Shown here: piece after piece, positions 1 to 16,308 of the stretch
How the letters are laid out: every line of letters begins with the position of its first letter
Position numbering within the stretch: the stretch's first letter is position 1
Source of the DNA: Alphaproteobacteria bacterium
GTDB lineage: Bacteria; Pseudomonadota; Alphaproteobacteria; CAAHEQ01; UBA3637
Length of the DNA stretch: 64,000 nt
Assembly (NCBI GenBank): GCA_017539265.1
Contig: JAFYHG010000027.1
Coordinates: forward strand, 13,886-77,885
Reading direction: 5' to 3'
Position numbers and translations under genes: made by a program
The notes under the pieces: model-generated
Seen by the model: the letters and a program-made list of their open reading frames with translations, nothing else
What the model was told of the DNA's origin: nothing
The model's database searches: none

Positions 1-2
1 TC

Positions 3-575
3 ATGGTTAAAGTTATGCCGGTTAATCGCATTGCAAATTCAGAAGATTTAAACGAAATTATTAACGGAATAGATCAAGCATCCCTTGAAGCTGCTCAAGC
101 AAAGGATCCAAACAAGCCAGCAATGAATATCAGATTAGTATGTATGGGCCACGAACCGGACCTTGGTGCAAAGTTGAAAGCTGAAATTAAAAAACAAGGC
201 TTTGATGTAAATGTTGAAGTTTATGATATTCTTCGCAACGACAAAGAGCTTGAATTTAAGCATCCATCTGAAGCAAACATCGTCAAAGAAGGTAATAAAC
301 TCGTAATTCAAGATTTCTTCCCAATGAATTTATTACAAAAACTATCTATCCAAAAGGAAAACGTTGAAAATTGGAAAGAACTTGTTGAATCTGTCAAGAT
401 AGATTGGAATTATGATGGAGCCGTCTTCCAACCGGCAGTCATTGATTATCCGGAAGATAAAAAAGACATGGTAAAAGGAGTGTACGACATCCCAGCAGAT
501 GTGGGCATTGTCCGTATAAAGATAACAGACCTTTTGTCTGAGAGCTTTGAAACGGAACTTGATTGGAGTAAATAA
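3..575 (+). CDS. Hypothetical protein, probably the 3' part of a gene starting upstream of the window. Its stop lies 2 bp before the start of the helicase-nuclease gene.
   Basis: ORF runs to the window edge. TAA at 573-575, next ATG at 578, so translational coupling is likely. No recognisable motifs. A Type III Mod C-terminus would be a plausible partner but cannot be shown from this fragment. Confidence 0.4.
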   Translation: MVKVMPVNRIANSEDLNEIINGIDQASLEAAQAKDPNKPAMNIRLVCMGHEPDLGAKLKAEIKKQGFDVNVEVYDILRNDKELEFKHPSEANIVKEGNKLVIQDFFPMNLLQKLSIQKENVENWKELVESVKIDWNYDGAVFQPAVIDYPEDKKDMVKGVYDIPADVGIVRIKITDLLSESFETELDWSK

Positions 576-577
576 CC

Positions 578-3265
578 ATGGCAAGAACTTCTTCCGAACA
601 AAACTTTTCATTTGAATTCTTTTCACATTTAAAGAACTTCTATTATAACAACAGACCAAGTATTCGCAAGCACTACAAAGAGTTAACAAAACGAATACTT
701 GACTATAATGACCCAGAAAAAGGTGATGCATTCCTTAGAAAGCCTCAATTTGAAGCACTAGAAATGTATATCTTTCTGAAAGAGTTTGCAAATAACAAAA
801 AAGTTCATGAAATTTTCCGGGATTGGCATGAAGGTAAGAATGGTTTTGAAAAAGAAAAACTGGTCATTACAGAGGATGAATCTGGCCAACAAAGTTTTAT
901 GAAAACCCTTGTATTTTCAAATGAAGATGAATATAAACGTGCTTTTGATTACTTGGCCAAGTCATCTCGTCAGTACGCGAATTATATCTTTGCACTTACG
1001 ATGGGTACCGGCAAAACAATCCTTATGGCTACCTGCATATTCTACGAATTTATACTCGCAAACAAATTTAGAAATGATGCTCGTTATTGTCAGAACGCCC
1101 TGGTATTCGCACCGGATAAGACGGTTTTACAATCTTTGCGAGAAATAAAGGATTTTGATATCTCAAAAGTTTTGCCACCGGAATACGCAAATTTTATCTC
1201 ATCGGCCGTAAAGTTCCACTATTTAAGTGATACAGATACAAGCTTATCTGTTCAACCGGAATCTTTATTTAATATTATCATTTCAAATACACAAAAGATT
1301 ATTATAAAGAAACAACACAAAGAAAAATCAAAATTGGAATTGTTCTACACACAACCATCAACTCGTGCTCTTCAAGAAGAGAAACCTGAAAAAAAGAAAG
1401 ATTCAACCTTTGATGCTATTGATGAATTAATGGGTAATTCGGATGTTCCGCAGGATGAAAAAGAACTAATACCAAATGCCCGTTTTCAACGTATCGCACA
1501 GTTACCCCAGCTGGGAATATACGTTGATGAGGCCCATCACTCTATCGGTAAAGAACTCGCTAGTAGCCAAACTAACAATAAAGAAGCAAGTAGTTTAAGA
1601 ACAACTATTAACGAACTTGCCAGTCGTTTAGATGCTTGTGGTTCACGCGTTGTTGCCTGCTATAACTATACAGGTACTCCGTACATTGGTAGAAGCATTA
1701 TGCCAGAAGTTGTTTATGCCTATAGTTTGGCGGATGCAATCAAAAACAAATATCTGAAGCAAACAGATCCTATCGCGTATTCGAATATTAAATCCGAAGA
1801 CTTTATACGCAATGTCATCAAGAATTTCTGGGAACAAGAAGGGGAAAAACGCGTAGAAGATATGTTGCCAAAACTTGCTTTTTTTGCAGCAACAATTAAA
1901 GAATTGGAAGAAGAACTTCAGCCCAAAATTGAAAAAGTTCTTGATGAATTGGGTATTTCAACTGATAAAATACTGATAAATGTTGGCGATCCAAAATTAA
2001 CGACAAACGATCAACTTCGCGAGTTTAATAGTTTGGATACGCCAGAATCAAACAAACAATTCATACTTCTTGTTGGCAAAGGACGGGAGGGTTGGAATTG
2101 TCGCTCTCTATTCGGCGTAGCTTTATTCCGTAAGCCAAAATCGACCATTTTTGTCCTTCAAGCAACCATGCGTTGTCTGCGGTCGATTGGTCCAAATCAA
2201 GAAACTGGACACATTTACCTCTCTGAAGAAAACTTAAATATTTTGGATGATGAACTTCAACGTAACTTTAACGTAACTCTTGCAGATATTAAAAAGAAAA
2301 AAGAATTACCCTCTTATACAGTTAGAATGGTTCCCCCCCCAGTTAAAATCACATTAAATCGTGTAAAACGTGTTTACTCTATAAAAAAGAAGAAAGAATG
2401 TCCAGAAGGAGTCGACTTTGGTTTGGATAGCCTTGATTATAACAACTACAAAGTTATAAAGACCGATAGGATATCTTTACTTACAACAATGGCAAAGGTA
2501 ACAGATATTACAGAAACAACAAGTAGACGACAGTTTAGTGCTTATATGCTTGTTGCTGAGATCGCTCGCTACTTTAACAATTCAGATGTTTCATGCTTCA
2601 TAATCAAGAAGATACTCGAGGCATCTAAGGAAGGTATAGCTAAAATTGTTGATACTGTTAATTTATATAACGATATTTTATATGATGTAATCATTCCAAT
2701 CATTTACAAAAACCTCTACGAAATTACATCAACCGACAATTCCGAACCAGAGGAGATTGAATTGGTTAAAATTAAGGATACCATTGATAAAACAGTGTTT
2801 ATTCGTAAATGTTCCGAAGATTTGGTTACCTCTATGCAAGATGCATATTTAAGAGATGTTGTTGAGAAAAGTTTTAATTTAGATACATATTGTTTTGATT
2901 CAACTCCAGAAATTGATTTCTTTAGAAAGTCTATATTTGACGACAATGTAGAAAAAATATACTTTACTGGTATGTTGACACATGGTGAATCTGATTTTTA
3001 TATTAATTATATAGATCCAGAAAGTCATACAGTTCGAAATTATTATCCTGATTTCCTAATAAAAACAAAAGACAATAAATGGCTTATTATTGAAATTAAA
3101 GGTGATAACCGGATTGATGATCCTGTTGTCCTGGCAAAAGCTGAATATGCACGCCGTTTAGCATCAGATAGTATGTTTGAGTACTATATGGTTAAGGGAA
3201 CGGATGCGAAAGACCTTGGCTTTGCGGCTCTTGATTATAAAAGTACTCAAGGTAGTTTATATTAA
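578..3265 (+). CDS. SF2 (ResIII/DEAH) helicase with a C-terminal PD-(D/E)xK-like nuclease motif, i.e. Type III restriction Res-like architecture.
   Basis: Helicase motifs seen: LRKPQFEALE (Q-like), TMGTGKT (motif I), VDEAHH (DEAH, motif II), YTGTPY (motif III), QATMRCLR (QxxGRxxR-like motif VI). Near the C-terminus, YPDFLIK ... LIIEIKG fits D...E-x-K of the PD-(D/E)xK fold. Domain order (helicase N-terminal, nuclease C-terminal) is as in Res subunits. Confidence 0.7.
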   Translation: MARTSSEQNFSFEFFSHLKNFYYNNRPSIRKHYKELTKRILDYNDPEKGDAFLRKPQFEALEMYIFLKEFANNKKVHEIFRDWHEGKNGFEKEKLVITEDESGQQSFMKTLVFSNEDEYKRAFDYLAKSSRQYANYIFALTMGTGKTILMATCIFYEFILANKFRNDARYCQNALVFAPDKTVLQSLREIKDFDISKVLPPEYANFISSAVKFHYLSDTDTSLSVQPESLFNIIISNTQKIIIKKQHKEKSKLELFYTQPSTRALQEEKPEKKKDSTFDAIDELMGNSDVPQDEKELIPNARFQRIAQLPQLGIYVDEAHHSIGKELASSQTNNKEASSLRTTINELASRLDACGSRVVACYNYTGTPYIGRSIMPEVVYAYSLADAIKNKYLKQTDPIAYSNIKSEDFIRNVIKNFWEQEGEKRVEDMLPKLAFFAATIKELEEELQPKIEKVLDELGISTDKILINVGDPKLTTNDQLREFNSLDTPESNKQFILLVGKGREGWNCRSLFGVALFRKPKSTIFVLQATMRCLRSIGPNQETGHIYLSEENLNILDDELQRNFNVTLADIKKKKELPSYTVRMVPPPVKITLNRVKRVYSIKKKKECPEGVDFGLDSLDYNNYKVIKTDRISLLTTMAKVTDITETTSRRQFSAYMLVAEIARYFNNSDVSCFIIKKILEASKEGIAKIVDTVNLYNDILYDVIIPIIYKNLYEITSTDNSEPEEIELVKIKDTIDKTVFIRKCSEDLVTSMQDAYLRDVVEKSFNLDTYCFDSTPEIDFFRKSIFDDNVEKIYFTGMLTHGESDFYINYIDPESHTVRNYYPDFLIKTKDNKWLIIEIKGDNRIDDPVVLAKAEYARRLASDSMFEYYMVKGTDAKDLGFAALDYKSTQGSLY

Positions 3266-3274
3266 GAGTGAAAT

Positions 3275-4795
3275 ATGCAAACATCGGCAGCAATTATAAA
3301 AATTTTATTTTGGAGTCTAATACTTTATTTGACGTTTAAACCAAAGAAAAAAACAAAAGGGGAAACATTATTGCAGAATAAGACGACTGCGAAGTCTACT
3401 ACATCTTCAGAAAGAAGTGTATCTAAACCCTTGGCAACGTATATCACTGAGCCAACATCACAAATATCTATTAATAAACATCCTATTATTGATGAACCTG
3501 TTAAAAAAGCTAGTACAAAATTATCTAAATTACAGCAAGATACGTTTGAGATTATTGAAAACACGAATAAAAACATATTCATCCAAGGACAAGCTGGCAC
3601 AGGTAAATCAACTTTTGTAGATTATCTTCAGTCTCATTCTAATAAACGCATACTTGTCGCTTGCCCAACAGCAGTAGCGGCAATAAACGTTGGTGGGTCT
3701 ACCTTACATTCTTTATTTAAACTACCGCTTAGTGATTTTCTGATAATTGATGAGATTATAAAGAAACCTCGGCGTACCCTTGCTTCAATTCTTCAAAAAA
3801 CTGACTTATTAATAATTGATGAGGTTTCAATGGTGAGACCAGATATGCTCGATGCAATAGACGCACTTTCAAGAATTGCACGTTGCAACAGAAAAGTACC
3901 ATTTGGTGGCTTACAAATTCTGTTGATTGGTGATCTTTGCCAGTTACCACCGGTTATAAAGAAAAACACTTATACGGTTTTCAAACAAGAATACGGCATC
4001 TCGGCGCCTTATTTTTTTGATGCTAAATCCTATAAAAATGGTAATTTTGATAAGATCGAATTCTCAAGAGTATATCGGCAATCCGATACAGAATTGCTGA
4101 ATAATCTTATAAAATTAAGAAATTACGAAGATTTAGATTCTGTTATAGAATACTTCAATAACTGTAAAATTACAGACAAAAATATACTTGATACAGCAGT
4201 TACCATTACTCCTTACCGAGCTGTCGCAGAACAAATGAATAAACAAAGGTTGGAGGCAATAAAGGGGACAGAAAAAAACTATGAATGTAAAACAACAGGG
4301 ACATTTGATGAGGTAAAGGATTCACCAGCTCCTAGAGTATTGACATTAAGAAAGGGAGCTCTCGTAATTTTTAATAAAAATAATGGGAGCAAATGGATTA
4401 ACGGGACTAGCGGTATTGTCGAATCATTAAGTGATAATATTATAGAAGTGCGGATTTTAAAAACAAATGAGATTGTTGCAGTAAAAAGAGAAGAATGGAA
4501 AATTTATCAATATGATATTGATAAAGAGACATCAAAAGTTTATGAAAAAGAGGTTGGATCTTTTATTCAATTCCCGCTTCAACTTGGTTACGCACTAACA
4601 ATTCATAAAGCACAAGGTAAAACTCTGGATAGTGTTATCATTGATATTGATCGTGGTGCATTTGCTCATGGACAACTCTATGTCGCACTTAGTAGGACAC
4701 GCAAAAAATCCGATATCCACCTTGTAAAGCCAATTTCACTATATGATATTATACAAGATGATCACGTAATAAATTTTCTTAAAGAAATACAATAA
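3275..4795 (+). CDS. Pif1/RecD-family (AAA_30) SF1 helicase with a hydrophobic N-terminal segment and a low-complexity linker.
   Basis: Motifs: GQAGTGKST (Walker A), LLIIDEVSM (Walker B/II), ILLIGDLCQLPPV, TIHKAQGKT, LYVALSRTR. These are hallmarks of Pif1/RecD/TraA-like helicases. Starts 9 bp after the previous stop. N-terminus (IIKILFWSLILYLTF) is TM-like. Confidence 0.75.
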   Translation: MQTSAAIIKILFWSLILYLTFKPKKKTKGETLLQNKTTAKSTTSSERSVSKPLATYITEPTSQISINKHPIIDEPVKKASTKLSKLQQDTFEIIENTNKNIFIQGQAGTGKSTFVDYLQSHSNKRILVACPTAVAAINVGGSTLHSLFKLPLSDFLIIDEIIKKPRRTLASILQKTDLLIIDEVSMVRPDMLDAIDALSRIARCNRKVPFGGLQILLIGDLCQLPPVIKKNTYTVFKQEYGISAPYFFDAKSYKNGNFDKIEFSRVYRQSDTELLNNLIKLRNYEDLDSVIEYFNNCKITDKNILDTAVTITPYRAVAEQMNKQRLEAIKGTEKNYECKTTGTFDEVKDSPAPRVLTLRKGALVIFNKNNGSKWINGTSGIVESLSDNIIEVRILKTNEIVAVKREEWKIYQYDIDKETSKVYEKEVGSFIQFPLQLGYALTIHKAQGKTLDSVIIDIDRGAFAHGQLYVALSRTRKKSDIHLVKPISLYDIIQDDHVINFLKEIQ

Positions 4796-4813
4796 AAATT
4801 ATCTATTTTGTTT

Positions 4814-5506
4814 TTATTCTAGACATTTATTTAAATCCCAGGGAGTGAGAAGTGCCAATATTTTTTCCGTTGGTTTTCCATTATCGGTTATAAAGATAAC
4901 TTCCAATCTTTTATTATTATTAAAGTCATCTTTAACCATCTCTTTTACCTCATCAACCGTTATGGTTTTTGGTATAAACCTGTAATGAACATCTGGATCG
5001 TTATATAACTCACAAAAATCCTTAAGATCTTTCATACAGATCTCATTAGTCTCCTCAATTATTTCTTGCTTATGTTTATTAAAATACAGCATAAGTGAGT
5101 GTGATGAGAAAACACCCTCTATAGCCCCATTTTTATCTAGTATTGGAGAACAGGTGTAATTTTTATCAAGCATCACTTGTATCACTGTATTAACTCTTTC
5201 ATTACCTGTGACTCTATATATTTTAGCTAAAGGTATTGCTATATCAATAGCTTTTGGAGGATACATTATCCTATCAGCTTCTGCCGCGAAAGTGGTGTAT
5301 AATTCATTAGTAAGATTGATAAATTTGCCATTACGAGCATTATCTTGATGTGTTAACAAATTTCGCAATGTTTTATAGAATTTCCATGTTCCAATGTTTT
5401 TTCCAAAACATTTATCGTCTAATATATTATCTATGTTAGGATTTTTCCTTTTGACAAAGCTTTCTATTTCAGTATATTTGCTTAAAAATTTATCTATTAC
5501 TGACAT
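4814..5506 (-). CDS. Hypothetical protein with an R-x4-H (HEPN-like) motif at the N-terminus and a CBS-like C-terminal half.
   Basis: TLRNLLTHQDN gives R-x4-H. The C-terminal half has CBS-like strings (SPILDKNGAIEGVFSSHSLMLYF; KILALLTPWDL). Lies on the same strand 91 bp downstream of the WYL regulator gene. Domain calls are tentative. Confidence 0.45.
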   Translation of the reverse strand: MSVIDKFLSKYTEIESFVKRKNPNIDNILDDKCFGKNIGTWKFYKTLRNLLTHQDNARNGKFINLTNELYTTFAAEADRIMYPPKAIDIAIPLAKIYRVTGNERVNTVIQVMLDKNYTCSPILDKNGAIEGVFSSHSLMLYFNKHKQEIIEETNEICMKDLKDFCELYNDPDVHYRFIPKTITVDEVKEMVKDDFNNNKRLEVIFITDNGKPTEKILALLTPWDLNKCLE

Positions 5507-5597
5507 CTTATAACCTTTCTAAATGAAATGTATACACGTTGAATTTTACTTAAAAAACATATAAAAATCAATACTAACTATTGACTAACCCACATTT

Positions 5598-6545
5598 TTA
5601 TTTTTCCTTTATCATTGTAGCCCAATTTTTGGGTTTAATAACTTTTACGTGATTACCCCAGGTATAAAGATGCCAATCCATTTCTTTTGAACCTCCGGCA
5701 CGGAATTTAACCGTTAAAGTTCCATCATCATTATGAATCATCTTTTGTTTGGGATGAAATTGATACTCTGCGGCACTACTGGCAACTTCCTTATCAAACA
5801 GCCATTCTACATCAAAAGGTTCCTCATGGAAAATGCCAAAAGACTGGGACATAAACTTTTCCAAAGAGAACTTTTTGTCTCGAGTGAAGTAATCCTTGGA
5901 AACTTTTATATTTCTAATACGGCTGATATCAAATGTGTACATTTGACCCCGCTTTACATTCCAAGCAATCAAATATGGCTTATTCCCATAAACAAAGCCA
6001 TATGGCCAAATAACCTTTTCCGTTGTTGCTACCTTACTTTCATAGGTAATTGTAATAATTTGACAACCCAAAATAGCATTTCTTAATATTTTCATAAATT
6101 CTTTATTGATACGGACTTTTGGGCCAGGGCGAAAAGCATATTTTTCAGATTCAAAGATCATCTCGGCATCTGGTTCATACTTGTTTAAAGCTGGTTTAGT
6201 CATTCCGGCCTTTATTTTATTTAATAATCGGTCAAGATTCTCACTGTCTTCTGGTGATTGTTCCTTCATTAAACGAATCGCTCGTTCTAGAGAATGTAGC
6301 TCTGGAAAATTGATAGCAATATGTTGATTTATTGTTTCAGGGGGAATACACCAAGACTTTCTATTCCCAGGGCCCTTAATCTCCTTCAATTGTGGGAATT
6401 GTTCCTTAATTTCATTTACATAACGAATAGCTGTCCGTTTATTTACCTGATATAATTCCATGATTTGGGATAAATTGACACCTTCCATAGAACTTTGCAT
6501 TCTGGTGACAATTTCCATTAAAATAGCGGTTTTTGTGTATGGCAT
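5598..6545 (-). CDS. WYL-domain transcriptional regulator (HTH + WYL; BrxR/CapW-like architecture).
   Basis: N-terminal HTH-like segment (LSQIMELYQVNKRTAIRYVNEIK). Middle region with the WYL signature (KPYLIAWNVKRGQMYTFDISRIRNIKV). Size about 315 aa, typical of this family. Confidence 0.7.
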   Translation of the reverse strand: MPYTKTAILMEIVTRMQSSMEGVNLSQIMELYQVNKRTAIRYVNEIKEQFPQLKEIKGPGNRKSWCIPPETINQHIAINFPELHSLERAIRLMKEQSPEDSENLDRLLNKIKAGMTKPALNKYEPDAEMIFESEKYAFRPGPKVRINKEFMKILRNAILGCQIITITYESKVATTEKVIWPYGFVYGNKPYLIAWNVKRGQMYTFDISRIRNIKVSKDYFTRDKKFSLEKFMSQSFGIFHEEPFDVEWLFDKEVASSAAEYQFHPKQKMIHNDDGTLTVKFRAGGSKEMDWHLYTWGNHVKVIKPKNWATMIKEK

Positions 6546-6605
6546 AGTACTCCTTTCTGTTATTGATATATCCTACAACAAAATGAAACAAATTGCAAGT
6601 AGTAA

Positions 6606-6622
6606 GTGACAAAAGTTGTCAC
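6606..6622. promoter_or_regulatory. Perfect 7-3-7 palindrome GTGACAA-AAG-TTGTCAC in the divergent intergenic region; candidate operator for the WYL regulator.
   Basis: Read directly in the sequence. Lies between the WYL gene start (6545) and the -35 of the plus-strand operon promoter. Confidence 0.45.
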
Positions 6623-6640
6623 CGATTTCCCTTTGATATC

Positions 6641-6669
6641 TTGACTTTTTGAAAATAATTCTGTATGTT
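6641..6669 (+). promoter_or_regulatory. Sigma70-like promoter TTGACT-17-TATGTT for the GIY-YIG operon.
   Basis: TTGACT at 6641-6646, a 17-nt spacer, TATGTT at 6664-6669. A GGAGG RBS sits ~10 nt before the ATG at 6707. Confidence 0.45.
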
Positions 6670-6706
6670 GAACGCGTTGTTTAACTTTTATTTGGAGGAC
6701 TAAAAA

Positions 6707-7150
6707 ATGTTGATAACTGGTACAAAAGAACAAGTTCATAATTTTCTAAAAACGGAGCCACATGAGTTTTATGTGTATGTACTCTGTGAACCCAACAAGA
6801 CTCCGTTTTATGTTGGGAAAGGCTGTGGAAACCGTATATTCCAACACGAATACGAAGCTGCACGCTCAGCATCTCGTAATCCCTACAAAACTAAAATGAT
6901 TAAAAACATTACGAAAAAGGATGGTAAGATTATCTACACAATAGATAGTGTACATAAAACTGAAGAAGAGGCTTTGATTCGTGAACGTGAGCTGATGCGT
7001 GAAATCGGCAGACCATTATTAACAAACCTGTCGGAAAAAGACTATAATACGACTCATGGTCGTTTGTACTGGTCTATTACGGGTATGTTAAAAGGCATCA
7101 ACAGAACTGTTTTTAGATTAACACATTCAGGAAAGGAGACATTACAATGA
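6707..7150 (+). CDS. GIY-YIG family nuclease domain protein.
   Basis: FYVYVL ... PFYVGKG ... NRIFQH ... EEALIRERELM ... LTNL reproduces the GIY/YIG/R/H/E/N catalytic pattern. Confidence 0.65.
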   Translation: MLITGTKEQVHNFLKTEPHEFYVYVLCEPNKTPFYVGKGCGNRIFQHEYEAARSASRNPYKTKMIKNITKKDGKIIYTIDSVHKTEEEALIRERELMREIGRPLLTNLSEKDYNTTHGRLYWSITGMLKGINRTVFRLTHSGKETLQ

Positions 7151-7461
7151 ATTTGGCTATGGTTTCGGGAACAATGGGTCCTATCAGAGATAAAGATATT
7201 TTTGTCAGAAATGACGGTGCAACAGTCGTAGATGGCTATATTGAAAAGACGTTTATGAAAGGCGAACAAGAGATCCGTAGTCATTATTACTTCACGGTTT
7301 CCGGAGGAAAAGCGGATAACTTACTAAAGTACTATCGGCCAGGTGATAGGGTTATGCTTACAGGGAAACTGGCAACCCGAGTTGACGAGGATGGACATTT
7401 TTGGGTTACTATTGTAGCATCTAGTTTTAGCAAGATGGATACGATAGATACGGATATTTAA
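7147..7461 (+). CDS. SSB-like OB-fold protein (short, no acidic tail).
   Basis: MNLAMVSGTMGPIRD ... ATVVDGYI ... YYFTVSGGKADNLLKYYRPGDRVMLTGKLATR ... HFWVTIVASSF parallels the SSB OB-fold layout. Overlaps the upstream gene by 4 bp (ATGA). Confidence 0.45.
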   Translation: MNLAMVSGTMGPIRDKDIFVRNDGATVVDGYIEKTFMKGEQEIRSHYYFTVSGGKADNLLKYYRPGDRVMLTGKLATRVDEDGHFWVTIVASSFSKMDTIDTDI

Positions 7462-7476
7462 GAAAGGAGAAAAATC

Positions 7477-7671
7477 ATGGGATTTTGGAGTGCTTTGTTA
7501 GGATTGGTTGATACACCGTCAAATAATGGATATAATAATGGTGGCAATCGTTATAATCGAGAGCCGACCGCAGAAGATTATATTCGTTCTGGTGAAATTG
7601 AAGAGGGTAATTATGATGATGGACAGAGAAATACAATTGACGAACACGGTCAATTACCAGATGACTGGTGA
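7477..7671 (+). CDS. Small protein (64 aa) with a hydrophobic N-terminus and an Asn/Gly-rich, acidic tail.
   Basis: AAAGGAGA RBS 6 nt upstream. In-operon position. No homology recognised. Confidence 0.35.
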   Translation: MGFWSALLGLVDTPSNNGYNNGGNRYNREPTAEDYIRSGEIEEGNYDDGQRNTIDEHGQLPDDW

Positions 7672-7729
7672 AGCTTTATTATCATATAGTTAATTATATA
7701 AACGGATTTTTAGAAAAGGAGACCATATT

Positions 7730-8149
7730 ATGAATACACACTTTATTCGCATTTGGAAAAACCATATTAAAAAAGAAAATGGTATTACAACAGAGTTTTT
7801 ATCAGTAAAGCCAAGCCCATTTAATAAGAAAGAATATGTTATGCCCGTTGTGGGGGATTATGCATATGTTTACCATTTGATACATGATGCAGAACCTTAT
7901 GAGAACACACCAGGCCGAGGACTTGATTGCTATGGAAAAATAACAAAAGTCACTGAAGAAAAAAGGAAAGTATCAATTTCGCTATCAGTTGAAAAAGAAA
8001 TGTATCCTAAAATTTTCAGATGTGATCAGCTGAAGGGATTAACGTACCCCAATGAACTAGATAAATGTATGTCGAATAGTTGTAATGAAGGTATAAATTT
8101 ATTGTCCCAAGAAGCAGATGACTTTTTACAAAAACAGTTTAATCAATAA
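7730..8149 (+). CDS. Hypothetical protein (139 aa).
   Basis: ORF within the co-directional operon. AAAGGAGA RBS upstream. Confidence 0.45.
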   Translation: MNTHFIRIWKNHIKKENGITTEFLSVKPSPFNKKEYVMPVVGDYAYVYHLIHDAEPYENTPGRGLDCYGKITKVTEEKRKVSISLSVEKEMYPKIFRCDQLKGLTYPNELDKCMSNSCNEGINLLSQEADDFLQKQFNQ

Positions 8150-8164
8150 ATTAAAGGAATCCCA

Positions 8165-9475
8165 ATGACAAAAGATATCCATACAATCAAATGCCCCAAA
8201 TGTGGAGAAGTTTTTCCGATTGATGAAAGCGGTTACGCCGCTATTGCCAGCCAAATTCGCGATAATGAGTTCCGAAAGGCTTTGGAAGAACGCTTTGAAC
8301 AAATGCAAGCGGATAAAGAAAGTGCCCTGAAACTTGCTCAGGTAACCGCTGACGCTGATAAAGAAAAATCTGTTTCTGCATTAAATCATCAAATTGATAT
8401 TTTAAATCAACAGCTAAAAACGATTAAAAAGGAAAGCGAACTTGATAAAGAGCAATCCATTGCGGAGTATAAACAGCAAATTACGGAGCTTCAGGCTCAA
8501 ATCAAGGCCAATGAAAAGGATAAAACCATTGCTGTTAATGCCGCACTGGAAGAAAATAAAGACACTTTGGTTGAAAAAGATAAAGAAATTATTGAATTGA
8601 AAGGGAAACTCCAAGGCGCCGAAAAGGATATCAAGCTTCAAGAGAAATCTTTAAAAGAAAAATACGAGATGGAATTGAAAAATAAGGACGAACTGATTGA
8701 TTATTATAAAGATTTAAAGATAAAGATGTCCACAAAAATGCTTGGGGAGACACTTGAACAGCACTGTGAAATCGCATTTAATATCATCCGTGCAACAGCT
8801 TTCCCAAATGCTTACTTTGAAAAAGACAATGACTCCAGAACAGGCAGTAAGGGGGACTATATTTTCAAAGAATCCACCGAGGATGGCATAGAATTCCTAT
8901 CCATTATGTTTGAAATGAAAAACGAAATGGATACAACAGCAACAAAACATAAAAATGAACATTTTTTCAAAGAATTAGATAAAGACCGTCAAGAAAAAGG
9001 ATGTGAATATGCCGTTTTGGTCTCTTTGCTAGAGTCGGATAGTGAGTTATATAACACGGGAATTGTTGATGTTTCCTACAAATATCCGAAAATGTATGTT
9101 ATTCGTCCACAATTCTTTATTCCTATAATCACTTTGCTCCGTAATACTTCCATGAATTCTGTTCAGTATCGCCGACAACTGGTCGAGTATAGAAACCAAA
9201 ATATAGATATTTCAAACTTTGAGGCTAAAATAGAAGATTTCAGAGACAAAATTAAGAAAAATTATCGTCTAGCAGGAGAGAGATTTAAAGCAGCAATTGA
9301 AGAAATTGACAAAAGTATAACACACTTGCAAAAAATTAAAGATGCCTTGCTTTCCACAGAAAGTAACTTACGCCTTGCTAACGATAAAGCTCAAGATTTT
9401 ACCGTCAAGAAACTCATTAAGGACAATCCGACAATGCAAAAGAAATTTGCAGAACTTAATCCACCAGAGGAATGA
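8165..9475 (+). CDS. DUF2130-like protein: N-terminal CxxC zinc ribbon, long coiled coil, and a C-terminal region with a D ... E-x-K (PD-(D/E)xK-like) arrangement.
   Basis: [29 protein letters not shown] matches the DUF2130 N-terminus as I remember it. Heptad-rich K/E middle. KGDYIF ... IMFEMKNE near the C-terminus. Confidence 0.6.
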
Positions 9476-9516
9476 GTACAGAGCTAAAAGATTTATGTAA
9501 GCATTGATTATATAAG

Positions 9517-10266
9517 ATGATAAAAGGAATTTGCAAATATTGTGGTCAAGAGAAAGAACTTATCAATTCTCATATAATTCCGAAAAATTTATGTCAAATT
9601 GATAAGAATGGCCCAATGGTTGGAATAGACTCTCTAACAAAGACTTTTGACCATAATCCTATACATCAAAACGGAGCAAAAGCTTACCTTCTGTGTAAGG
9701 AGTGTGATAATCTATTAGGTAAGCTAGATAGATATGGTAGTAAAGTGTTTAAGAAGATAATTCCAAATCATAAATGGGACATAGTAGATGGTGTAGAACT
9801 ATGTAAATTATTACCAGATGAAGTAGATTACTGGACATTAAAAAAGTTTTTAATTTCTGTGTTGTGGCGTGCTTCTGTAGATAAGAATGGGCCTGATTTA
9901 GGAAGATATGAAAATATTGCACTAAAAATACTTAAGGAAGAGCTTCCTGATAATTCTAACTATTTTGTTCCTTTCGTATACATACTAGACACTAAGACAC
10001 CCTTAGACTTTTCTATGGGGATTTTTGGCAATAAAACTTTAGGGAAACACATATATATTATTCACTTCCCTCATTATGAGGTAATGATTATACCTTCTGC
10101 TGAACATTCACGAGACCCAAAACTTATGGAACTATACAAGGCTTTATTCAATTGTAACCATATAATAGTTCAGAAATTTTCTATACCAACCCTGATTGAC
10201 CAACAATTGATTAACACATTAAAGATATGTCAAAAGAATGAGTTACAAAAAAAGAAAAAGTTATAA
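9517..10266 (+). CDS. Cys-cluster protein with an HNH-like arrangement (CxxC ... HIIP ... CxxCDN).
   Basis: CKYCGQEKELINSHIIPKNL and LLCKECDNLLGK. The spacing is longer than in a canonical HNH, so this is tentative. Confidence 0.4.
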   Translation: MIKGICKYCGQEKELINSHIIPKNLCQIDKNGPMVGIDSLTKTFDHNPIHQNGAKAYLLCKECDNLLGKLDRYGSKVFKKIIPNHKWDIVDGVELCKLLPDEVDYWTLKKFLISVLWRASVDKNGPDLGRYENIALKILKEELPDNSNYFVPFVYILDTKTPLDFSMGIFGNKTLGKHIYIIHFPHYEVMIIPSAEHSRDPKLMELYKALFNCNHIIVQKFSIPTLIDQQLINTLKICQKNELQKKKKL

Positions 10267-10305
10267 ATTTTCTTTTATTACAGAGAAGACGAATAAGTAG
10301 AACAC

Positions 10306-10887
10306 TTATATCGTCACATTCTCTACAGCATTTGAGAGCATTTTCTCGTTATAATTGAAGTACCTTTGAGTTGTCCCAATATTGCGGTGGTTGGCGAGTT
10401 TTTGAACCAAACAGATATTTGTGCCGGCATTGATAAGGCGACTCACGAACAAATGGCGTCCAAGATGGCTTCCCCCGTCAATATTGAACTTACTGTAAAT
10501 GTTTGAAAACATTCTGCTAATACTAACACGATTGAAAGGTTTTCCTAACTTTTGCGAGGTAAAGAGATACATTTCTGGGGTAATTTCTTCATTTTTGGTC
10601 TTTAGGTAAGAAAGATATTCCTTAAACTCTTTCTTCATTTGAGTATTAAGGTAATAAGAACACCCGAACTTGCCTTTGTTTTTATCCTTATCCAGACAAA
10701 TGACATCCTTGACCTTTAGGTCGGAAGTGTAGACATCCCCGACTTGAAGGTAAGCAAAATTTATAGACCTCATGCCATTGAGCGAGCATAGGAACATCAT
10801 CCTAATTTGTTCCGCATGTCGCATCCCCTGAATATAGGTTAAAATATCTTTGATTTTTTTATCATCTATAAAAACTTGGTTTACCAT
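10306..10887 (-). CDS. Tyrosine recombinase, catalytic domain only (193 aa).
   Basis: R (LNGMRSI), HLGRHLF (H-x-x-R), NHRNIGTTQRY (terminal H/Y) reproduce the integrase catalytic residues. No N-terminal core-binding domain is present. Confidence 0.65.
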   Translation of the reverse strand: MVNQVFIDDKKIKDILTYIQGMRHAEQIRMMFLCSLNGMRSINFAYLQVGDVYTSDLKVKDVICLDKDKNKGKFGCSYYLNTQMKKEFKEYLSYLKTKNEEITPEMYLFTSQKLGKPFNRVSISRMFSNIYSKFNIDGGSHLGRHLFVSRLINAGTNICLVQKLANHRNIGTTQRYFNYNEKMLSNAVENVTI

Positions 10888-10967
10888 TTTTTATCCTTTC
10901 GTAAAAATTGAACAGTTTTATGCGGCCCAGGACTATAGAGCCGATTTTTTTCAAAGCCAAGCCCTAA

Positions 10968-12788
10968 ATGTTAAAAAATGTTATTTTTTTGAATAAAATT
11001 AAACATTTTGAAATACTTGCCTGGAATGACGTTTTCAAAAACATTGATTTTATAAGGCTATTAGGGATAATGTTAAATAATGTATGTTTTTTAACATTTT
11101 TCATTTTTCTGGACTTTTGGATGATTTTATTGTATACTGCGACCAGTTTTTTAAATTTTCATGGATTCAGTATGCGAATAAACCGTCCAAATTATTTTAG
11201 CGAGATTGACGAGCAAGATGTCCTCTTCTATGGAGAGGAAGGACGCTTTCGGAGAATATCCCTAGATTTCTGGAAAGATGTTTACCCAAATATATTGCAA
11301 GCGTACTTATCAACCAAACAACCCGAAAATGATTTTAAGGACACTTTTGTAGACCCGTCATTTTATCCGATAGGTCCAGAACATGCACTACGTTTATGCA
11401 CGAGGGTGTTTACAGATATCTTTCCTTCGTGTTTCGAAACAAATTACTCGGAACTTCCTGATAGACCTGGTAAGTTATATGAAAAGGATATAGAGCCACT
11501 TAAAGACAAAAAAGGGCTTGTTGGGGCTATTGCGAGAACATGGAACAAAATAGGCAAATATGGAGACTATCATTTTTTACAGCTCCTAGAGATTGTTAGC
11601 ACATTTAAAAATGGTATTGTAAAACTTACGGATAAACTGCCAGACCCACTATATGCTGATTTTGTAAAAGAAATACGTGCAGTCTTTTATAAGTACGCAG
11701 ATTTATTGAATAATAAAGAAATCAGAAAAGAAATTGATAAAATCGTTTTCTTAAAGCATCCGAATGCAACTAAAAAGATTAAGTCCCCAAGAGGATATCG
11801 GATAGTTAAGGCAGAATACGCCCGTTGTGAACTTATTTTTGAAAATGTGGATTTTGGTAGGAAAGAACAGGAGCTTTTCTGGAACATACTAACGATTCCA
11901 GAGGGTTTTGTTCCAATGGAAACAGCTTTTTTCCTTAATTGTAGATTTTCTGCAACCTATACATGTCCTACAAAAGTAATTCGTCCCAGGGCTTTGTTCA
12001 GATACTGCATATTTGAAAAAGAATTTGCCCCAGCTCCATATATCCAGCAATCATGGAGATTTATAAACTGTACAATAAAAAACAAATTTAATTTCAGAAA
12101 AACAGTGCTACGCAGAGGGCTTTTCTTTCATGGATGTGTGTTTGAGTCGGAAAGTTCATTCATATTTGATAATTCACGTGGCAACCGTTGGGTTCCGAAA
12201 GATTACCCATATAATAAACTTTATTTTACAGACACAATATTTGGCGGTGATTTCTCCATAATGAATACAAGTTTAAGTCATACTGAATTTGTATTGAAGA
12301 ATGTCGCATTTTTCAAAACATTCCGCTTTGATGAAGTCAGATTAAGTGATAAGTGCACTTTTGAACGTATTAGTTTTGCTTTGGGAAGTACTCCGCAAAT
12401 AATACAATGTAAACAAACTTTTGTTGAAATGCTCCAATTACACGGATATCATGCGGAACTTGATTCACTGGGATTATTAAGTAAAAATTCTAACAAAAAA
12501 AGAGCTCAACGCTTTTATACATCATGGCTTCATCCAATCGAAGCAGCCGAATTTCTTTCCAAAAGCATAAGTTGGTTAGCCAAGAAAAGACAAGCCGACA
12601 GATTAAAGAAAACAAAGACTTCTATACCATTTGTTGGGGAAAAGAAAAATATTTTATACCCCAAGACAGCCTTACAGGCATTCCGTTCACAAGATTGGAA
12701 TAAGTTAAAAGAACTCTGTAAAAAATATGGAGTTGGTGAGAAAGAAAAACCCAAATCTGCCGACATTAGCATATTTGATGTAGATTAA
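10968..12788 (+). CDS. Large hypothetical protein (start uncertain; hydrophobic N-terminus).
   Basis: Long ORF. Its last ~95 nt are duplicated downstream of the abi gene. Confidence 0.45.
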   Translation: MLKNVIFLNKIKHFEILAWNDVFKNIDFIRLLGIMLNNVCFLTFFIFLDFWMILLYTATSFLNFHGFSMRINRPNYFSEIDEQDVLFYGEEGRFRRISLDFWKDVYPNILQAYLSTKQPENDFKDTFVDPSFYPIGPEHALRLCTRVFTDIFPSCFETNYSELPDRPGKLYEKDIEPLKDKKGLVGAIARTWNKIGKYGDYHFLQLLEIVSTFKNGIVKLTDKLPDPLYADFVKEIRAVFYKYADLLNNKEIRKEIDKIVFLKHPNATKKIKSPRGYRIVKAEYARCELIFENVDFGRKEQELFWNILTIPEGFVPMETAFFLNCRFSATYTCPTKVIRPRALFRYCIFEKEFAPAPYIQQSWRFINCTIKNKFNFRKTVLRRGLFFHGCVFESESSFIFDNSRGNRWVPKDYPYNKLYFTDTIFGGDFSIMNTSLSHTEFVLKNVAFFKTFRFDEVRLSDKCTFERISFALGSTPQIIQCKQTFVEMLQLHGYHAELDSLGLLSKNSNKKRAQRFYTSWLHPIEAAEFLSKSISWLAKKRQADRLKKTKTSIPFVGEKKNILYPKTALQAFRSQDWNKLKELCKKYGVGEKEKPKSADISIFDVD

Positions 12789-12790
12789 AC
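12695..12790. repeat. Direct repeat copy 1 (96 bp), including the 3' end of the 10968-12788 gene.
   Basis: 95/96 identical to 13985-14080 by direct reading. Confidence 0.9.
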
Positions 12791-12839
12791 GGTTTATCTT
12801 ATTGAAAATAAATACGATATAAAATTAATTAAAAAAGTG

Positions 12840-12868
12840 TTGACTCATAATTTTTTTTATATTATAAT
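12840..12868 (+). promoter_or_regulatory. Consensus sigma70 promoter TTGACT-17-TATAAT upstream of the abi gene.
   Basis: TTGACT at 12840-12845, 17-nt spacer, TATAAT at 12863-12868. Confidence 0.5.
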
Positions 12869-12914
12869 ATACATAACAAGCCCTTCCCGCTAAAGGCAGA
12901 GATGTACAGCGAAT

Positions 12915-13979
12915 ATGGAAGGGCATTATTTTAAGGTTATAGAAATGCAGAGAGTCAAATTTTTTAAAGAATCAAAAACCCCTGATGAGCTTATAGAACA
13001 ACTTGTTAAACGTGGTATGGTAATTACAAATCGTGATTATGCTAAAGATATTTTATTTAAAATTAATTATTATCGTTTATCAGGATATTGGTTTAAATTT
13101 CAAAATAAATGGTTAAAGCAATTGCCAGTTCCAGAAAACGCAACCAGTGAAGAAATTGATGAACTGAATAATCAATTTATCAGACGGGTATCCTTTGAAA
13201 ATATTGTTGATATATACAGATTTGATAGTAAATTACGTTCTTTATGCATAGATGCACTGGAGAAAATAGAAATTGGAATTAGCTCTGTTCTCTGTAATCA
13301 TATGTGCCAAAAGTATGGCGGATATTGGTTTTTAAATAAACAGCTTGTGCAAAAAGTCACAAAAAAAACTAAAGAAGGAGAAAAAGTTTTATTTAATCAT
13401 GATTTATTAATGGAAGACATTGATAAGTTATTAGCAAAAAATAAACGAACAAAATGTATCAAAAATTTTCGAGTAAAATATACTGATGAATATCCTCCTT
13501 ACTGGATATTAGCTCAATTGGTAACATTTGGAACTTTATCGAAAATTTATTCTTCTTTACCCCCTGTAGATAAAAAAGAAATTGCAAAGATGCTAGGTGT
13601 AAATGATGAACTGTTATCACACAGCCTCACATTACTGTCTTATATTAGAAATATTTGTGCTCATTATGCCCGCTTATGGGATAATGATAATAGTGTTGTC
13701 CCTTTGAATATTAATTTTAATCGCATAGAACCCAACAGTATTTTTAATTATCGCTTTCATACAAATGGAAAGAATAGTGCAACATTCTTCCCAGTATTTT
13801 ATTTAATAACCTTATACTTATATATGCTTTATCCGAAATCTAAATGGTGCTCCATTGTTGAACAAAAAATTAAAGAATATGAGAAATTAACAGATTCATT
13901 GGTTTCTTTTAAGACCATGGGATTTTTAGATACGTGGAGAGAATTACCATTATTCATAAGAATGCTCAAGAATGCGTAA
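12915..13979 (+). CDS. Abi_2 family (AbiD/AbiF-like) abortive infection protein.
   Basis: N-terminus ... TPDELIEQLVKRGMVITNRDYAKDILFKINYYRLSGYWF is a classic Abi_2 start. Later, IRNICAHYARLWDN gives the R-x4-H (HEPN) motif of this family. Confidence 0.8.
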   Translation: MEGHYFKVIEMQRVKFFKESKTPDELIEQLVKRGMVITNRDYAKDILFKINYYRLSGYWFKFQNKWLKQLPVPENATSEEIDELNNQFIRRVSFENIVDIYRFDSKLRSLCIDALEKIEIGISSVLCNHMCQKYGGYWFLNKQLVQKVTKKTKEGEKVLFNHDLLMEDIDKLLAKNKRTKCIKNFRVKYTDEYPPYWILAQLVTFGTLSKIYSSLPPVDKKEIAKMLGVNDELLSHSLTLLSYIRNICAHYARLWDNDNSVVPLNINFNRIEPNSIFNYRFHTNGKNSATFFPVFYLITLYLYMLYPKSKWCSIVEQKIKEYEKLTDSLVSFKTMGFLDTWRELPLFIRMLKNA

Positions 13980-13984
13980 CTTAA

Positions 13985-14080
13985 TTGGAATAACTTAAAA
14001 GAACTCTGTAAAAAATATGGAGTTGGTGAGAAAGAAAAACCCAAATCTGCCGACATTAGCATATTTGATGTAGATTAAAC
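13985..14080. repeat. Direct repeat copy 2 (96 bp).
   Basis: Matches 12695-12790 with one mismatch. Confidence 0.9.
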
Positions 14081-15028: not shown

Positions 15029-15029
15029 C

Positions 15030-16244: not shown

Positions 16245-16308
16245 GTGTTTGATTCCATTATTAAATCGTTTCCGAATAAATAAAAATGTTAGGAAATAAG
16301 GAGTCTTA

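What the first reader, a model, noticed from the sequence alone, without database searches (positions are those of the whole stretch)
3..4795. Res-like helicase-nuclease translationally coupled to a Pif1-like helicase
The 895-aa protein has Type III Res architecture: a DEAH SF2 helicase followed by a C-terminal PD-(D/E)xK-like motif (PDF ... EIK). It is wedged 2 bp after an upstream gene and 9 bp before a Pif1/RecD-family helicase with a hydrophobic N-terminus. A Res-like enzyme paired with a second, SF1 helicase is not a canonical Type III R-M layout (Mod-Res). The methyltransferase, if any, would lie upstream of the window. I could not match the combination to a defence system I know.
Basis: partly seen in the sequence, partly recalled or inferred. 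Interest (0 to 1): 0.75.

Follow-up and report, generated by a model that had tools for sequence, protein, structure and literature searches.

The report
Type III-like restriction cassette plus Pif1 helicase
The window opens inside a widespread restriction-modification cassette already described computationally (RecB-like helicase-nuclease, methyltransferase, Res-like helicase-nuclease), and one small group of uncultured Alphaproteobacteria has added a membrane-anchored Pif1 helicase to it, whose role is unknown.

Summary
The three ORFs exist as described. The interpretation needs correcting in three ways.

1. The first ORF (3..575) is not an unknown neighbour. It is the last 190 aa of a 627-aa Mod-type methyltransferase. 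An identical contig shows a 955-aa UvrD-Cas4 helicase-nuclease just upstream of it.

2. UvrD-Cas4 / Mod / Res-like is the conserved unit. Mod is adjacent in 80 of 80 genome loci carrying a Res homologue and UvrD-Cas4 in 75 of 80, across many phyla, plasmids and a phage. Hudaiberdiev et al. (2017) described this neighbourhood computationally. I found no experimental study.

3. The Pif1 gene is absent from 79 of those 80 loci. It is still not a random neighbour. A single clade of Pif1 proteins with an N-terminal membrane anchor sits 3-12 nt after Res in five diverged cassettes with different flanks. A member of the sister clade sits 1 nt after a Type ISP restriction enzyme. Other relatives are housekeeping or stand-alone genes.

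Verdict: a known, uncharacterised Type III-like system with a new lineage-specific four-gene variant. Interest is moderate.

The parts
1..575 (+). 3' end (last 190 codons) of the mod gene. The full protein is a 627-aa beta-class N6/N4 DNA methyltransferase whose gene starts about 1.3 kb upstream of the window.
   Evidence: Contig L001 differs from the window by 2 mismatches in 10,655 nt and carries the full gene (L001 8115-9998; Pfam N6_N4_Mtase). DPPF is at aa 100 and FMGSG at aa 343. A hypervariable TRD lies at about aa 200-320. PADLOC MTase_III scores 5e-58. A Mod homologue is adjacent in 80 of 80 loci.
578..3265 (+). res-like gene: an 895-aa SF2 ATPase with a C-terminal PD-(D/E)xK nuclease.
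   Evidence: Pfam ResIII 26.4 bits (cut-off 22.5) and Tn7_TnsA-like_N 29.9 bits (cut-off 26.5), both found in 20 of 20 family members. The AF2 model's best Foldseek PDB hit is EcoP15I Res 4zcf_C. More than 4800 homologues were found.
998..1018 (+). Res helicase motif I (Walker A), TMGTGKT, aa 141-147.
   Evidence: M142, G143, G145, K146 and T147 are invariant and T141 is nearly invariant in alignment A1.
1526..1540 (+). Res helicase motif II, DEAHH, aa 317-321.
   Evidence: Invariant in alignment A1.
3047..3100 (+). Res nuclease catalytic motif, PDF(824-826)...EIK(839-841).
3275..4795 (+). Pif1-family SF1B helicase gene (506 aa), a lineage-specific fourth gene of the cassette.
   Evidence: Pfam PIF1 scores 3.4e-28. 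It matches PDB Pif1 structures 8bns (1e-88), 5fhd (1e-73) and yeast and human PIF1 (1e-34 to 1e-39), but RecD2 only at 7e-6. All helicase motifs are invariant in alignment A2. Homologues at 58-79% identity follow Res by 3-12 nt in L083-85, L086-89, L102-103 and L104.
3287..3337 (+). Predicted N-terminal membrane anchor of the Pif1-like protein (aa 5-21, AAIIKILFWSLILYLTF). It is followed by the basic patch KPKKKTK and a low-complexity linker running to about aa 82.
   Evidence: The Kyte-Doolittle 15-residue maximum is 2.0-2.5 in all six proteins of the anchor-bearing clade (five with a confirmed cassette context). It is at most 1.4 in all other top hits except the stand-alone P0146. The positive-inside rule would place the helicase in the cytoplasm; this is an inference.
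3899..3955 (+). Pif1 signature region, PFGGLQILLIGDLCQLPPV (aa 209-227).
   Evidence: Read from the sequence. F210, G211, Q214, L217, G219, D220 and Q223-P226 are invariant in A2. The comparison with the published Pif1 signature motif is from my own knowledge.
5598..6545 (-). WYL+WCX (BrxR-like) transcription regulator, a possible regulator of the cassette.
   Evidence: Pfam WYL and WCX; PADLOC WYL 1.4e-26. A 59-60% identical WYL gene lies directly upstream of UvrD-Cas4 in L083 and L084. PMC5704561 reports WYL/HTH regulators in some such loci. The link to this cassette is inferred.

Best explanation
The window begins inside a four-gene restriction-modification operon: UvrD-Cas4 helicase-nuclease (just outside the window), Mod, Res-like and Pif1.

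The first three genes form a widespread Type III-like cassette. The likely mechanism is as follows; each step is an inference from anatomy and from what is established for EcoP15I-type enzymes, none was shown here:
1. Mod reads a short sequence through its hypervariable target-recognition domain and methylates host DNA.
2. On unmethylated sites, a Mod-Res complex uses the Res SF2 ATPase to communicate along the DNA.
3. The Res C-terminal PD-(D/E)xK nuclease cuts the DNA.
4. The RecB-like UvrD-Cas4 protein (SF1A motor plus an Fe-S Cas4-type nuclease) unwinds and degrades DNA from the break.

In one sub-lineage of uncultured Alphaproteobacteria, a Pif1-family (SF1B, 5'-3') helicase carrying an N-terminal membrane anchor was added directly downstream of res. 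It most probably acts as an accessory motor. It may complement the 3'-5' UvrD-Cas4 as RecD complements RecB, or it may clear or process DNA near the membrane. This last step is the least certain.
For: - Context. An identical contig shows UvrD-Cas4 (955 aa), Mod (627 aa), Res and Pif1 on one strand with short gaps.
- Conservation. Among 80 genome loci with Res homologues (48-80% identity, many phyla), Mod is adjacent in 80 and UvrD-Cas4 in 75 (67 aligned over at least 900 aa). The same trio is on Nitrosomonas and Enterococcus faecium plasmids and at the end of a gut phage genome.
- Mod. It has beta-class motif order. Its TRD is 15-31% identical among relatives whose flanks are 64-93% identical.
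- Res. SF2 motifs and D825/E839/K841 are invariant. EcoP15I Res is the top structural hit. The PD-(D/E)xK fold is predicted.
- UvrD-Cas4. GPGAGKT, DEYQD, Cys713/938/941/947 and an NCBIfam cas4 hit.
- Literature. PMC5704561 describes this neighbourhood and notes associated WYL regulators.
- Pif1 link:
  - Five diverged cassettes (Pif1 58-79% identical) keep it 3-12 nt after res despite different flanks.
  - The six anchor-bearing Pif1 proteins, five of them with a confirmed cassette context, form one clade.
  - Sister-clade member P0131 is 1 nt downstream of a 1579-aa Type ISP enzyme, read on 18 contigs of which 3 loci were inspected.
  - Another sister-clade member is fused to HEPN_AbiU2.
Against: - Pif1 is absent from 79 of 80 species-level loci. 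It is also absent from cassettes whose Res is 75%, 67% and 54% identical to this one. It is therefore dispensable for the core system.
- Close Pif1 relatives (55-58% identity) are stand-alone chromosomal genes. One is syntenic with SulP and the mraY-ftsZ cluster. Another carries a similar membrane anchor with no restriction genes nearby.
- Contigs encoding an identical Pif1 carry truncated or frameshifted cassette genes.
- Res is so far from canonical Res proteins that phmmer and hmmsearch do not reach EcoP15I. PADLOC REase_III matches only 45 residues.
- No biochemical or genetic data exist for any member, as far as my literature searches reach.
Confidence: 0.7

Rival explanations
1. This is an ordinary Type III-like R-M cassette with an unrelated neighbour. 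The Pif1 gene would be a duplicated housekeeping or mobile-element replication helicase that landed next to res in one ancestor. It has been co-inherited by linkage only and has no role in restriction.
For: - Pif1 is missing from 79 of 80 loci and from cassettes at 75%, 67% and 54% Res identity.
- Homologues at 55-58% identity are conserved alone in non-defence contexts.
- All Pif1-bearing cassettes fall in one Res clade (at least 76% identity), which is compatible with a single insertion.
- The cassettes often sit at prophage ends, where cargo accumulates.
Against: - Adjacency and 3-12 nt spacing survive divergence of Pif1 to 58-61% identity and changes of both flanks.
- L102 carries a Pif1 allele of a different type from its Res and UvrD-Cas4. 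This suggests recombination that nevertheless kept a Pif1 gene at that position.
- A separate sister-clade member is coupled to a different ATP-dependent restriction enzyme (Type ISP) with a 1-nt gap. More distant Pif1 genes also lie next to or near Type ISP genes (L152 adjacent, L133 about 2 kb away).
Confidence: 0.25
2. Pif1 is functionally linked but acts as a safeguard or an independent defence module rather than an accessory motor. For example, it could strip stalled Res or UvrD-Cas4 complexes or R-loops from host DNA to limit autoimmunity. Alternatively it could be a stand-alone helicase-based defence that co-localises with restriction enzymes.
For: - The Pif1 protein hits PADLOC candidate-defence helicase models (PDC-M16A, PDC-S68, PDC-S53, typeIV_RecD) at 1e-15 to 1e-19.
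- A clade member is fused to HEPN_AbiU2.
- Pif1 stays intact where cassette genes are damaged.
- Protein displacement and R-loop or G4 unwinding by Pif1 helicases are established biochemistry (my own knowledge).
Against: - The PADLOC matches cover only the generic SF1 core and are partial.
- No effector domain is present in the 506-aa protein besides the helicase and the anchor.
- The damaged cassettes come from short-read assemblies, and the indels lie in A-runs, so they may be assembly errors.
Confidence: 0.1
3. The cassette is not a restriction system at all. It would be a TnsA-type transposition module or a DNA-repair module, as the RefSeq name 'TnsA endonuclease N-terminal domain-containing protein' suggests.
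Against: - No TnsB, TnsC or other transposase partner is adjacent in the window, L001 or the 80 loci examined.
- The strictly linked methyltransferase has a hypervariable TRD, which is the hallmark of R-M specificity diversification.
- The cassette is carried as cargo by plasmids and a phage and sits in defence islands.
Confidence: 0.03

Closest known systems
UvrD-Cas4 / Mod / Res loci described by Hudaiberdiev et al. 2017 (BMC Evol Biol 17:232, PMC5704561)
   Same: The same three genes are present: a UvrD-like SF1 helicase fused to a Cas4-like Fe-S nuclease, a Mod-type methyltransferase, and a Res-type helicase-nuclease. WYL regulators occur in some loci, including this one.
   Different: That paper does not mention a Pif1-family gene. 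The membrane-anchored Pif1 as a fourth gene is specific to the small clade containing this window.
Classical Type III R-M enzymes (EcoP15I, EcoP1I; structure 4ZCF)
   Same: Gene order is mod then res. Mod is a beta-class MTase with a central TRD. Res has an N-terminal SF2 ATPase and a C-terminal PD-(D/E)xK nuclease. EcoP15I Res is the top structural neighbour.
   Different: A third gene (UvrD-Cas4) is conserved with the pair in 75 of 80 loci. Res is not detectably similar to EcoP15I Res by sequence. Its nuclease domain is closest to TnsA. Only 1031 50%-identity cluster representatives are reached at E <= 1e-3 in 1.84 billion, so this is a compact, separate family.
RecBCD / AddAB helicase-nucleases
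   Same: UvrD-Cas4 is a RecB/AddA-like SF1A motor with a RecB-family Fe-S nuclease. With the SF1B Pif1 helicase, the cassette would hold two motors of opposite polarity, like RecB plus RecD (the analogy is inferred).
   Different: There is no RecC or AddB homologue. Pif1 is not RecD (RecD2 only 7e-6, against 1e-88 for Pif1 structures). No evidence of a complex exists. The Type ISP-coupled relatives have no UvrD-Cas4 partner.
Bacterial Pif1 helicases (for example Bacteroides Pif1 5FHD, Thermus oshimai Pif1 6S3E)
   Same: The full SF1B core, aa 83-505, is homologous at E = 1e-66 to 1e-88, and all motifs are conserved.
   Different: There is an extra 82-aa N-terminus with a membrane anchor, and the gene sits in a restriction operon.
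Type ISP restriction-modification enzymes (LlaGI, LlaBIII)
   Same: They are ATP-dependent restriction machines. In L105-107, a Type ISP gene is followed at 1 nt by a Pif1 gene 65% identical to the window's.
   Different: The window's system is multi-subunit, with separate Mod and Res, and not a single Mrr-helicase-MTase-TRD polypeptide.

Membership tests
Type III restriction-modification (Mod/Res) | mod lies immediately upstream of res on the same strand. | tested here: met
   There are 2 nt between the mod stop and the res start. A Mod homologue is adjacent in 80 of 80 loci.
Type III restriction-modification (Mod/Res) | Mod is a beta-class N6A/N4C methyltransferase with the order motif IV (DPPY/F), TRD, motif I (FxGxG), and the TRD is variable. 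| tested here: met
   DPPF at aa 100 and FMGSG at aa 343. The region aa 200-320 is 15-31% identical among relatives, against 64-93% in the flanks. Pfam N6_N4_Mtase. PADLOC MTase_III scores 5e-58, but MTase_II is nearly as good at 1.4e-55.
Type III restriction-modification (Mod/Res) | Res has an SF2 helicase-like ATPase followed by a C-terminal PD-(D/E)xK endonuclease. | tested here: met
Type III restriction-modification (Mod/Res) | Sequence-level membership of Res in the recognised Res families. | tested here: inconclusive
   Pfam ResIII scores 26.4 bits, just above the 22.5 cut-off. PADLOC REase_III matches only aa 817-861. NCBIfam BPTD_3080 scores 52 bits against a cut-off of 800. There is no phmmer or hmmsearch hit to EcoP15I Res in the PDB.
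Type III restriction-modification (Mod/Res) | Two genes are the complete system. | tested here: not met
   A UvrD-Cas4 gene is conserved upstream in 75 of 80 loci, and Pif1 is added in this clade.
Type III restriction-modification (Mod/Res) | Hemimethylation of an asymmetric site, and ATP-dependent cleavage that requires two inversely oriented unmethylated sites. | not testable with these tools
   This needs methylome sequencing and in vitro cleavage assays.
UvrD-Cas4-associated Mod/Res loci (PMC5704561) | A UvrD-like SF1 helicase is fused to a Cas4-like (PF12705) nuclease with a four-cysteine cluster. | tested here: met
   L001 5192-8059 carries Pfam UvrD-helicase, UvrD_C and PDDEXK_1. NCBIfam pcrA scores 2e-70 and cas4 scores 4e-10 over aa 808-947. 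Cysteines are at 713, 938, 941 and 947.
UvrD-Cas4-associated Mod/Res loci (PMC5704561) | It is encoded next to Mod and Res genes, sometimes with WYL/HTH regulators. | tested here: met
   The WYL gene is at window 5598-6545 (-).
Pif1-family SF1B helicases | A Pfam PIF1 match above the gathering score, and homology to solved Pif1 structures stronger than to RecD. | tested here: met
   PIF1 scores 99.2 bits against a cut-off of 25.9. 8bns scores 1e-88, 5fhd 1e-73 and RecD2 7e-6.
Pif1-family SF1B helicases | A Pif1 signature motif lies between helicase motifs II and III. | tested here: met
   PFGGLQILLIGDLCQLPPV at aa 209-227, largely invariant in A2. The consensus used for comparison is from my own knowledge.
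Pif1-family SF1B helicases | 5'-3' ATP-dependent DNA unwinding. | not testable with these tools
   This needs biochemical assay.
Tn7-like TnsA transposition modules | The TnsA nuclease is accompanied by TnsB and TnsC partners and transposon ends. | tested here: not met
   Only the nuclease fold is shared. No such partners are among the neighbours.
Named multi-gene defence systems with helicase and MTase (DISARM, BREX, Gabija, MADS) | The signature proteins of each system are present (DrmA/DrmB, PglZ/BrxC, GajA, Mad proteins). | tested here: not met
   PADLOC scans of all four cassette proteins return only generic MTase, REase_III, GajB-like UvrD core and RecD/Pif1-core matches.

The most novel reading that the evidence does not exclude
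A dedicated branch of bacterial Pif1 helicases has been recruited repeatedly as an accessory motor of ATP-dependent restriction enzymes. A membrane-anchored form is attached to UvrD-Cas4/Mod/Res cassettes, and an anchor-less sister form is attached to Type ISP enzymes. In the cassette, it would pair with the RecB-like UvrD-Cas4 protein to form a bipolar, RecBCD-like shredder of restricted DNA, positioned at the inner membrane where foreign DNA enters.
Probability: 0.3. Interest if true: 0.65.

Novelty: new variant of a known kind. Interest (0 to 1): 0.5.

Why it matters
There are two points of interest.

1. The three-gene UvrD-Cas4/Mod/Res cassette is very widespread. Homologues at about 50% identity occur from Bacillus to Bradyrhizobium and on Enterococcus faecium and Nitrosomonas plasmids, with one at 46% identity in a gut phage. 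RefSeq annotates it only as 'DNA helicase / methyltransferase / TnsA-N domain protein'. PADLOC models barely touch the Res protein, so the system is probably under-called as an orphan methyltransferase. I found no experimental work on it.

2. The window's clade adds a membrane-anchored Pif1 helicase, and a sister-clade member is welded to a Type ISP enzyme. If that link is functional, it would give a first defined role for a bacterial Pif1 helicase in immunity. It would also provide a simple genetic system for asking what second and third motors add to a restriction enzyme.

Tried and rejected
- Sequence searches of Res against the PDB, as a single sequence and as a 20-sequence profile, gave no meaningful hit. 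Only structure prediction linked it to EcoP15I Res and TnsA.
- PADLOC and NCBIfam gave no system-level or equivalog match for Res. I considered DISARM, BREX, Gabija and MADS and rejected them because their signature proteins are absent.
- A Tn7-like transposon reading was rejected because no TnsB or TnsC is present.
- The metagenome scan with the Pif1 alignment returned mostly distant (34-40% identity) Pif1 genes. Only two of the 80 (L133, L152) lie near a restriction gene. That is too sparse for statistics.
- The viral-contig scan for Pif1 gave two uninformative loci.
- The promoter and terminator scan of 1-7000 found no more sites than shuffled sequence and no terminator between the convergent gene ends at 4795 and 4814. 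It says nothing firm about operon structure.
- Frameshifts in relatives' mod and res genes lie in short A-runs of short-read assemblies. I do not treat them as evidence of phase variation.
- Five literature searches and three papers read found only the 2017 comparative-genomics description.
- REBASE could not be consulted.
Full report
**Observation.** The three forward-strand ORFs are present exactly as reported: 3..575 (open at the window edge), 578..3265 (895 aa) and 3275..4795 (506 aa). The gaps are 2 nt and 9 nt.
- The 895-aa protein carries TMGTGKT (aa 141-147), DEAHH (aa 317-321), a motif VI-like QATMRCLR, and PDF(824-826)...EIK(839-841).
- The core residues G143, G145-T147, D317-H321, P824-F826, E839 and K841 are invariant in a 20-sequence alignment at 51-79% identity to the query.
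- The 506-aa protein is a clear Pif1-family helicase. Pfam PIF1 scores 99 bits. Solved bacterial Pif1 structures match at E = 1e-88 to 1e-66, and RecD2 only at 7e-6.
- Its first 82 residues are extra: a hydrophobic helix (aa 5-21), the basic patch KPKKKTK, and a low-complexity linker.

**What lies upstream.** The same 895-aa protein is encoded on a 24-kb metagenomic scaffold (L001). That scaffold differs from the window by 2 mismatches in 10,655 nt and extends 9.4 kb further upstream.
- ORF 3..575 is the last 190 residues of a 627-aa N6_N4_Mtase. It has DPPF at aa 100 and FMGSG at aa 343, which is the beta-class order typical of Mod subunits. PADLOC MTase_III scores 5e-58.
- Directly upstream of it lies a 955-aa protein. 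Its N-terminus is a UvrD/PcrA-type SF1A helicase (GPGAGKT, DEYQD). Its C-terminus is a Cas4/RecB-family nuclease with the cysteine pattern C713...C938-x2-C941-x5-C947.

**The conserved unit.** The Res-like protein belongs to a large but compact family.
- More than 4800 homologues were found, typically about 50% identical over the full length. They come from Bacillus, Bradyrhizobium, Novosphingobium, cyanobacteria, Acidobacteriota and others.
- Only 1031 cluster representatives at 50% identity are reached at E <= 1e-3 among 1.84 billion. Canonical Res proteins are therefore not reached by sequence.
- In 80 loci from species-representative genomes, a Mod homologue is immediately upstream in 80. 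A UvrD-Cas4 homologue lies upstream of Mod in 75, and 67 of these align over at least 900 residues. Most of the shorter alignments are cut by contig ends.
- The trio also occurs on a conjugative Nitrosomonas eutropha plasmid, on the Enterococcus faecium plasmid pDY28-poxtA, and at the end of a human-gut phage genome. It is annotated there only as 'ATP-dependent DNA helicase / site-specific DNA-methyltransferase / TnsA endonuclease N-terminal domain-containing protein' or as hypothetical proteins.
- Hudaiberdiev et al. [quoted passage not shown] The window has such a WYL+WCX regulator at 5598-6545 on the minus strand.
- Five literature searches and three papers read found no experimental study of the system.

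**Is it a restriction system?** Three lines of evidence support this.
1. Among close relatives, the Mod region between motifs IV and I (aa ~200-320) is only 15-31% identical, while the flanks are 64-93% identical. That is the signature of specificity diversification in a target-recognition domain.
2. The full-length Res model (mean pLDDT 71) has EcoP15I Res (4zcf_C) as its best Foldseek PDB hit, although only marginally ahead of other SF2 enzymes.

All 20 family members tested hit both Pfam ResIII and Tn7_TnsA-like_N. Sequence-level membership in canonical Res families is nevertheless marginal. A third gene is also conserved with the pair. I therefore call it Type III-like rather than a plain Type III system.

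**The Pif1 gene.** It is not part of the general cassette.
- Only 1 of the 80 genome loci has it. That copy (L003) is homologous only over its first 261 residues.
- Cassettes whose Res is 75%, 67% and 54% identical to the window's lack it.

Within the window's own sub-clade it is consistently present.
- Pif1 proteins 79%, 61%, 60% and 59% identical to the window's lie 3-12 nt downstream of Res in four further diverged cassettes: L083-85, L086-89, L104 and L102-103.
- Their flanks differ from the window's. Those that extend past Pif1 border phage tail genes, whereas the window has WYL and other island genes downstream.
- All six anchor-bearing proteins form one clade in a neighbour-joining tree of the 120 best hits. 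Five of them have a confirmed cassette context.
- Res, UvrD-Cas4 and Pif1 mostly co-diverge, with Pif1 evolving faster. In L102, however, the Pif1 allele is of a different type from its Res and UvrD-Cas4. This suggests recombination that still kept a Pif1 gene at that position.

The sister clade lacks the anchor.
- P0131 (65% identical) starts 1 nt after a 1579-aa Type ISP restriction-modification enzyme. It was read on 18 contigs, of which 3 loci were inspected.
- P0141 is a HEPN_AbiU2-Pif1 fusion.
- P0139 follows an unknown 807-aa gene, with a Type I system 1.4 kb away.
- More distant Pif1 genes (37-38% identity) lie next to or near Type ISP genes in two of 80 metagenome loci.

Against a functional link, two observations stand out.
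- A large clade of 442-446-aa homologues (58% identity) is a syntenic chromosomal gene next to SulP and near the mraY-ftsZ cluster.
- One anchor-bearing homologue, from a different branch, stands alone among housekeeping genes.

**Mechanism.** Shown here: the gene content, motifs, predicted folds and conservation. Everything else below is inferred.
1. By analogy with EcoP15I-type enzymes, Mod recognises and methylates a short site. Mod-Res on unmethylated sites uses ATP to communicate along DNA, and the Res PD-(D/E)xK domain cuts.
2. As proposed in PMC5704561, UvrD-Cas4 supplies unwinding and degradation at the break.
3. My own inference, held with the least confidence, is that the Pif1 helicase supplies a motor of opposite polarity (5'-3'), as RecD does for RecB. 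Tethering to the membrane might place it where foreign DNA enters.
4. The Type ISP-coupled relatives have no UvrD-Cas4. Any common role must therefore be more general, such as processing of cleaved or stalled DNA.

**Verdict.**
- The core is an already described, though experimentally untouched, Type III-like three-gene system.
- The Pif1 addition is a lineage-specific four-gene variant that I did not find described.
- Its recurrence next to two kinds of ATP-dependent restriction enzymes makes a functional link plausible. I put this at about 0.55, and at about 0.3 for the specific accessory-motor reading.
- Interest is 0.5. A specialist would not be astonished by extra helicases in an R-M locus. 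Even so, the cassette is common and unstudied, and the Pif1 link is testable.

Noticed in passing
window 2333-2340: A C8 homopolymer lies inside res, encoding the invariant PPP(586-588). All eight relatives examined use interrupted proline codons there. It could be a slippage or phase-variation tract, or it could be chance.
   Followed up: partly
window 4814-6545 (-): A WYL+WCX (BrxR-like) regulator (5598-6545) and a 230-aa protein with a weak CBS-domain hit (4814-5506) run convergent to the cassette. In L083 and L084, a 59-60% identical WYL gene lies directly upstream of UvrD-Cas4 on the same strand.
   Followed up: partly
window 1-16700: This is a low-GC island (31-37.5% over the first 16 kb, against mostly 40-46% beyond). 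It carries GIY-YIG (6707-7150), an SSB-like gene (7147-7461), DUF2130 (8165-9475), an integrase fragment (10306-10887, -), Abi_2 (12915-13979), an ankyrin-like ORF by eye (14075-14596, -), DUF6876 (15030-15401, -), a resolvase-like ORF by eye (15654-16244) and DUF6626 (16309-16743). Upstream in L001 are PDDEXK_4, Ank, patatin and a Y-family polymerase.
   Followed up: partly
L086, L088, L089, L102, L003: Relatives carrying an intact Pif1 have damaged cassette genes. UvrD-Cas4 is N-terminally truncated beside a KAP NTPase gene, and Mod or Res is split by 1-nt deletions in A-runs. L003 keeps only an 86-aa UvrD-Cas4 remnant and a Pif1 homologous for 261 aa. This may be real decay or assembly error.
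   Followed up: partly
L102 versus L083, L087 and L104: The gene trees disagree. L102 Res and UvrD-Cas4 are 89-90% identical to those of L083, but its Pif1 is only 60% identical to L083's and 64-70% identical to those of L087 and L104. This suggests recombination at the res/Pif1 junction.
   Followed up: yes
L105 4260-10401; L106; L107; L152; L133: A Type ISP restriction-modification enzyme (1579 aa) is followed at 1 nt by a Pif1 gene 65% identical to the window's. More distant Pif1 genes lie adjacent to (L152) or about 2 kb from (L133) Type ISP genes.
   Followed up: partly
protein P0141 (651 aa): A HEPN_AbiU2 domain is fused to the N-terminus of a Pif1 helicase 64% identical to the window's.
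   Followed up: no
window 2975-3004 (+): A near-consensus promoter-like site (TTGACA-18-TATATT, 11 of 12 matches) lies inside res, about 270 nt before the Pif1 start. The region's total count of such sites is not above shuffled controls.
   Followed up: no
L193 (phage PV036426.1) 1415-9568: In a human-gut phage, a 246-aa hypothetical gene lies between the helicase gene and the methyltransferase gene of a homologous cassette, at the very end of the phage genome.
   Followed up: no
window 17159-21661 (-): A 1500-aa ORF with a signal-like N-terminus and a Gly-rich segment, at the boundary where GC content rises. I did not analyse it.
   Followed up: no
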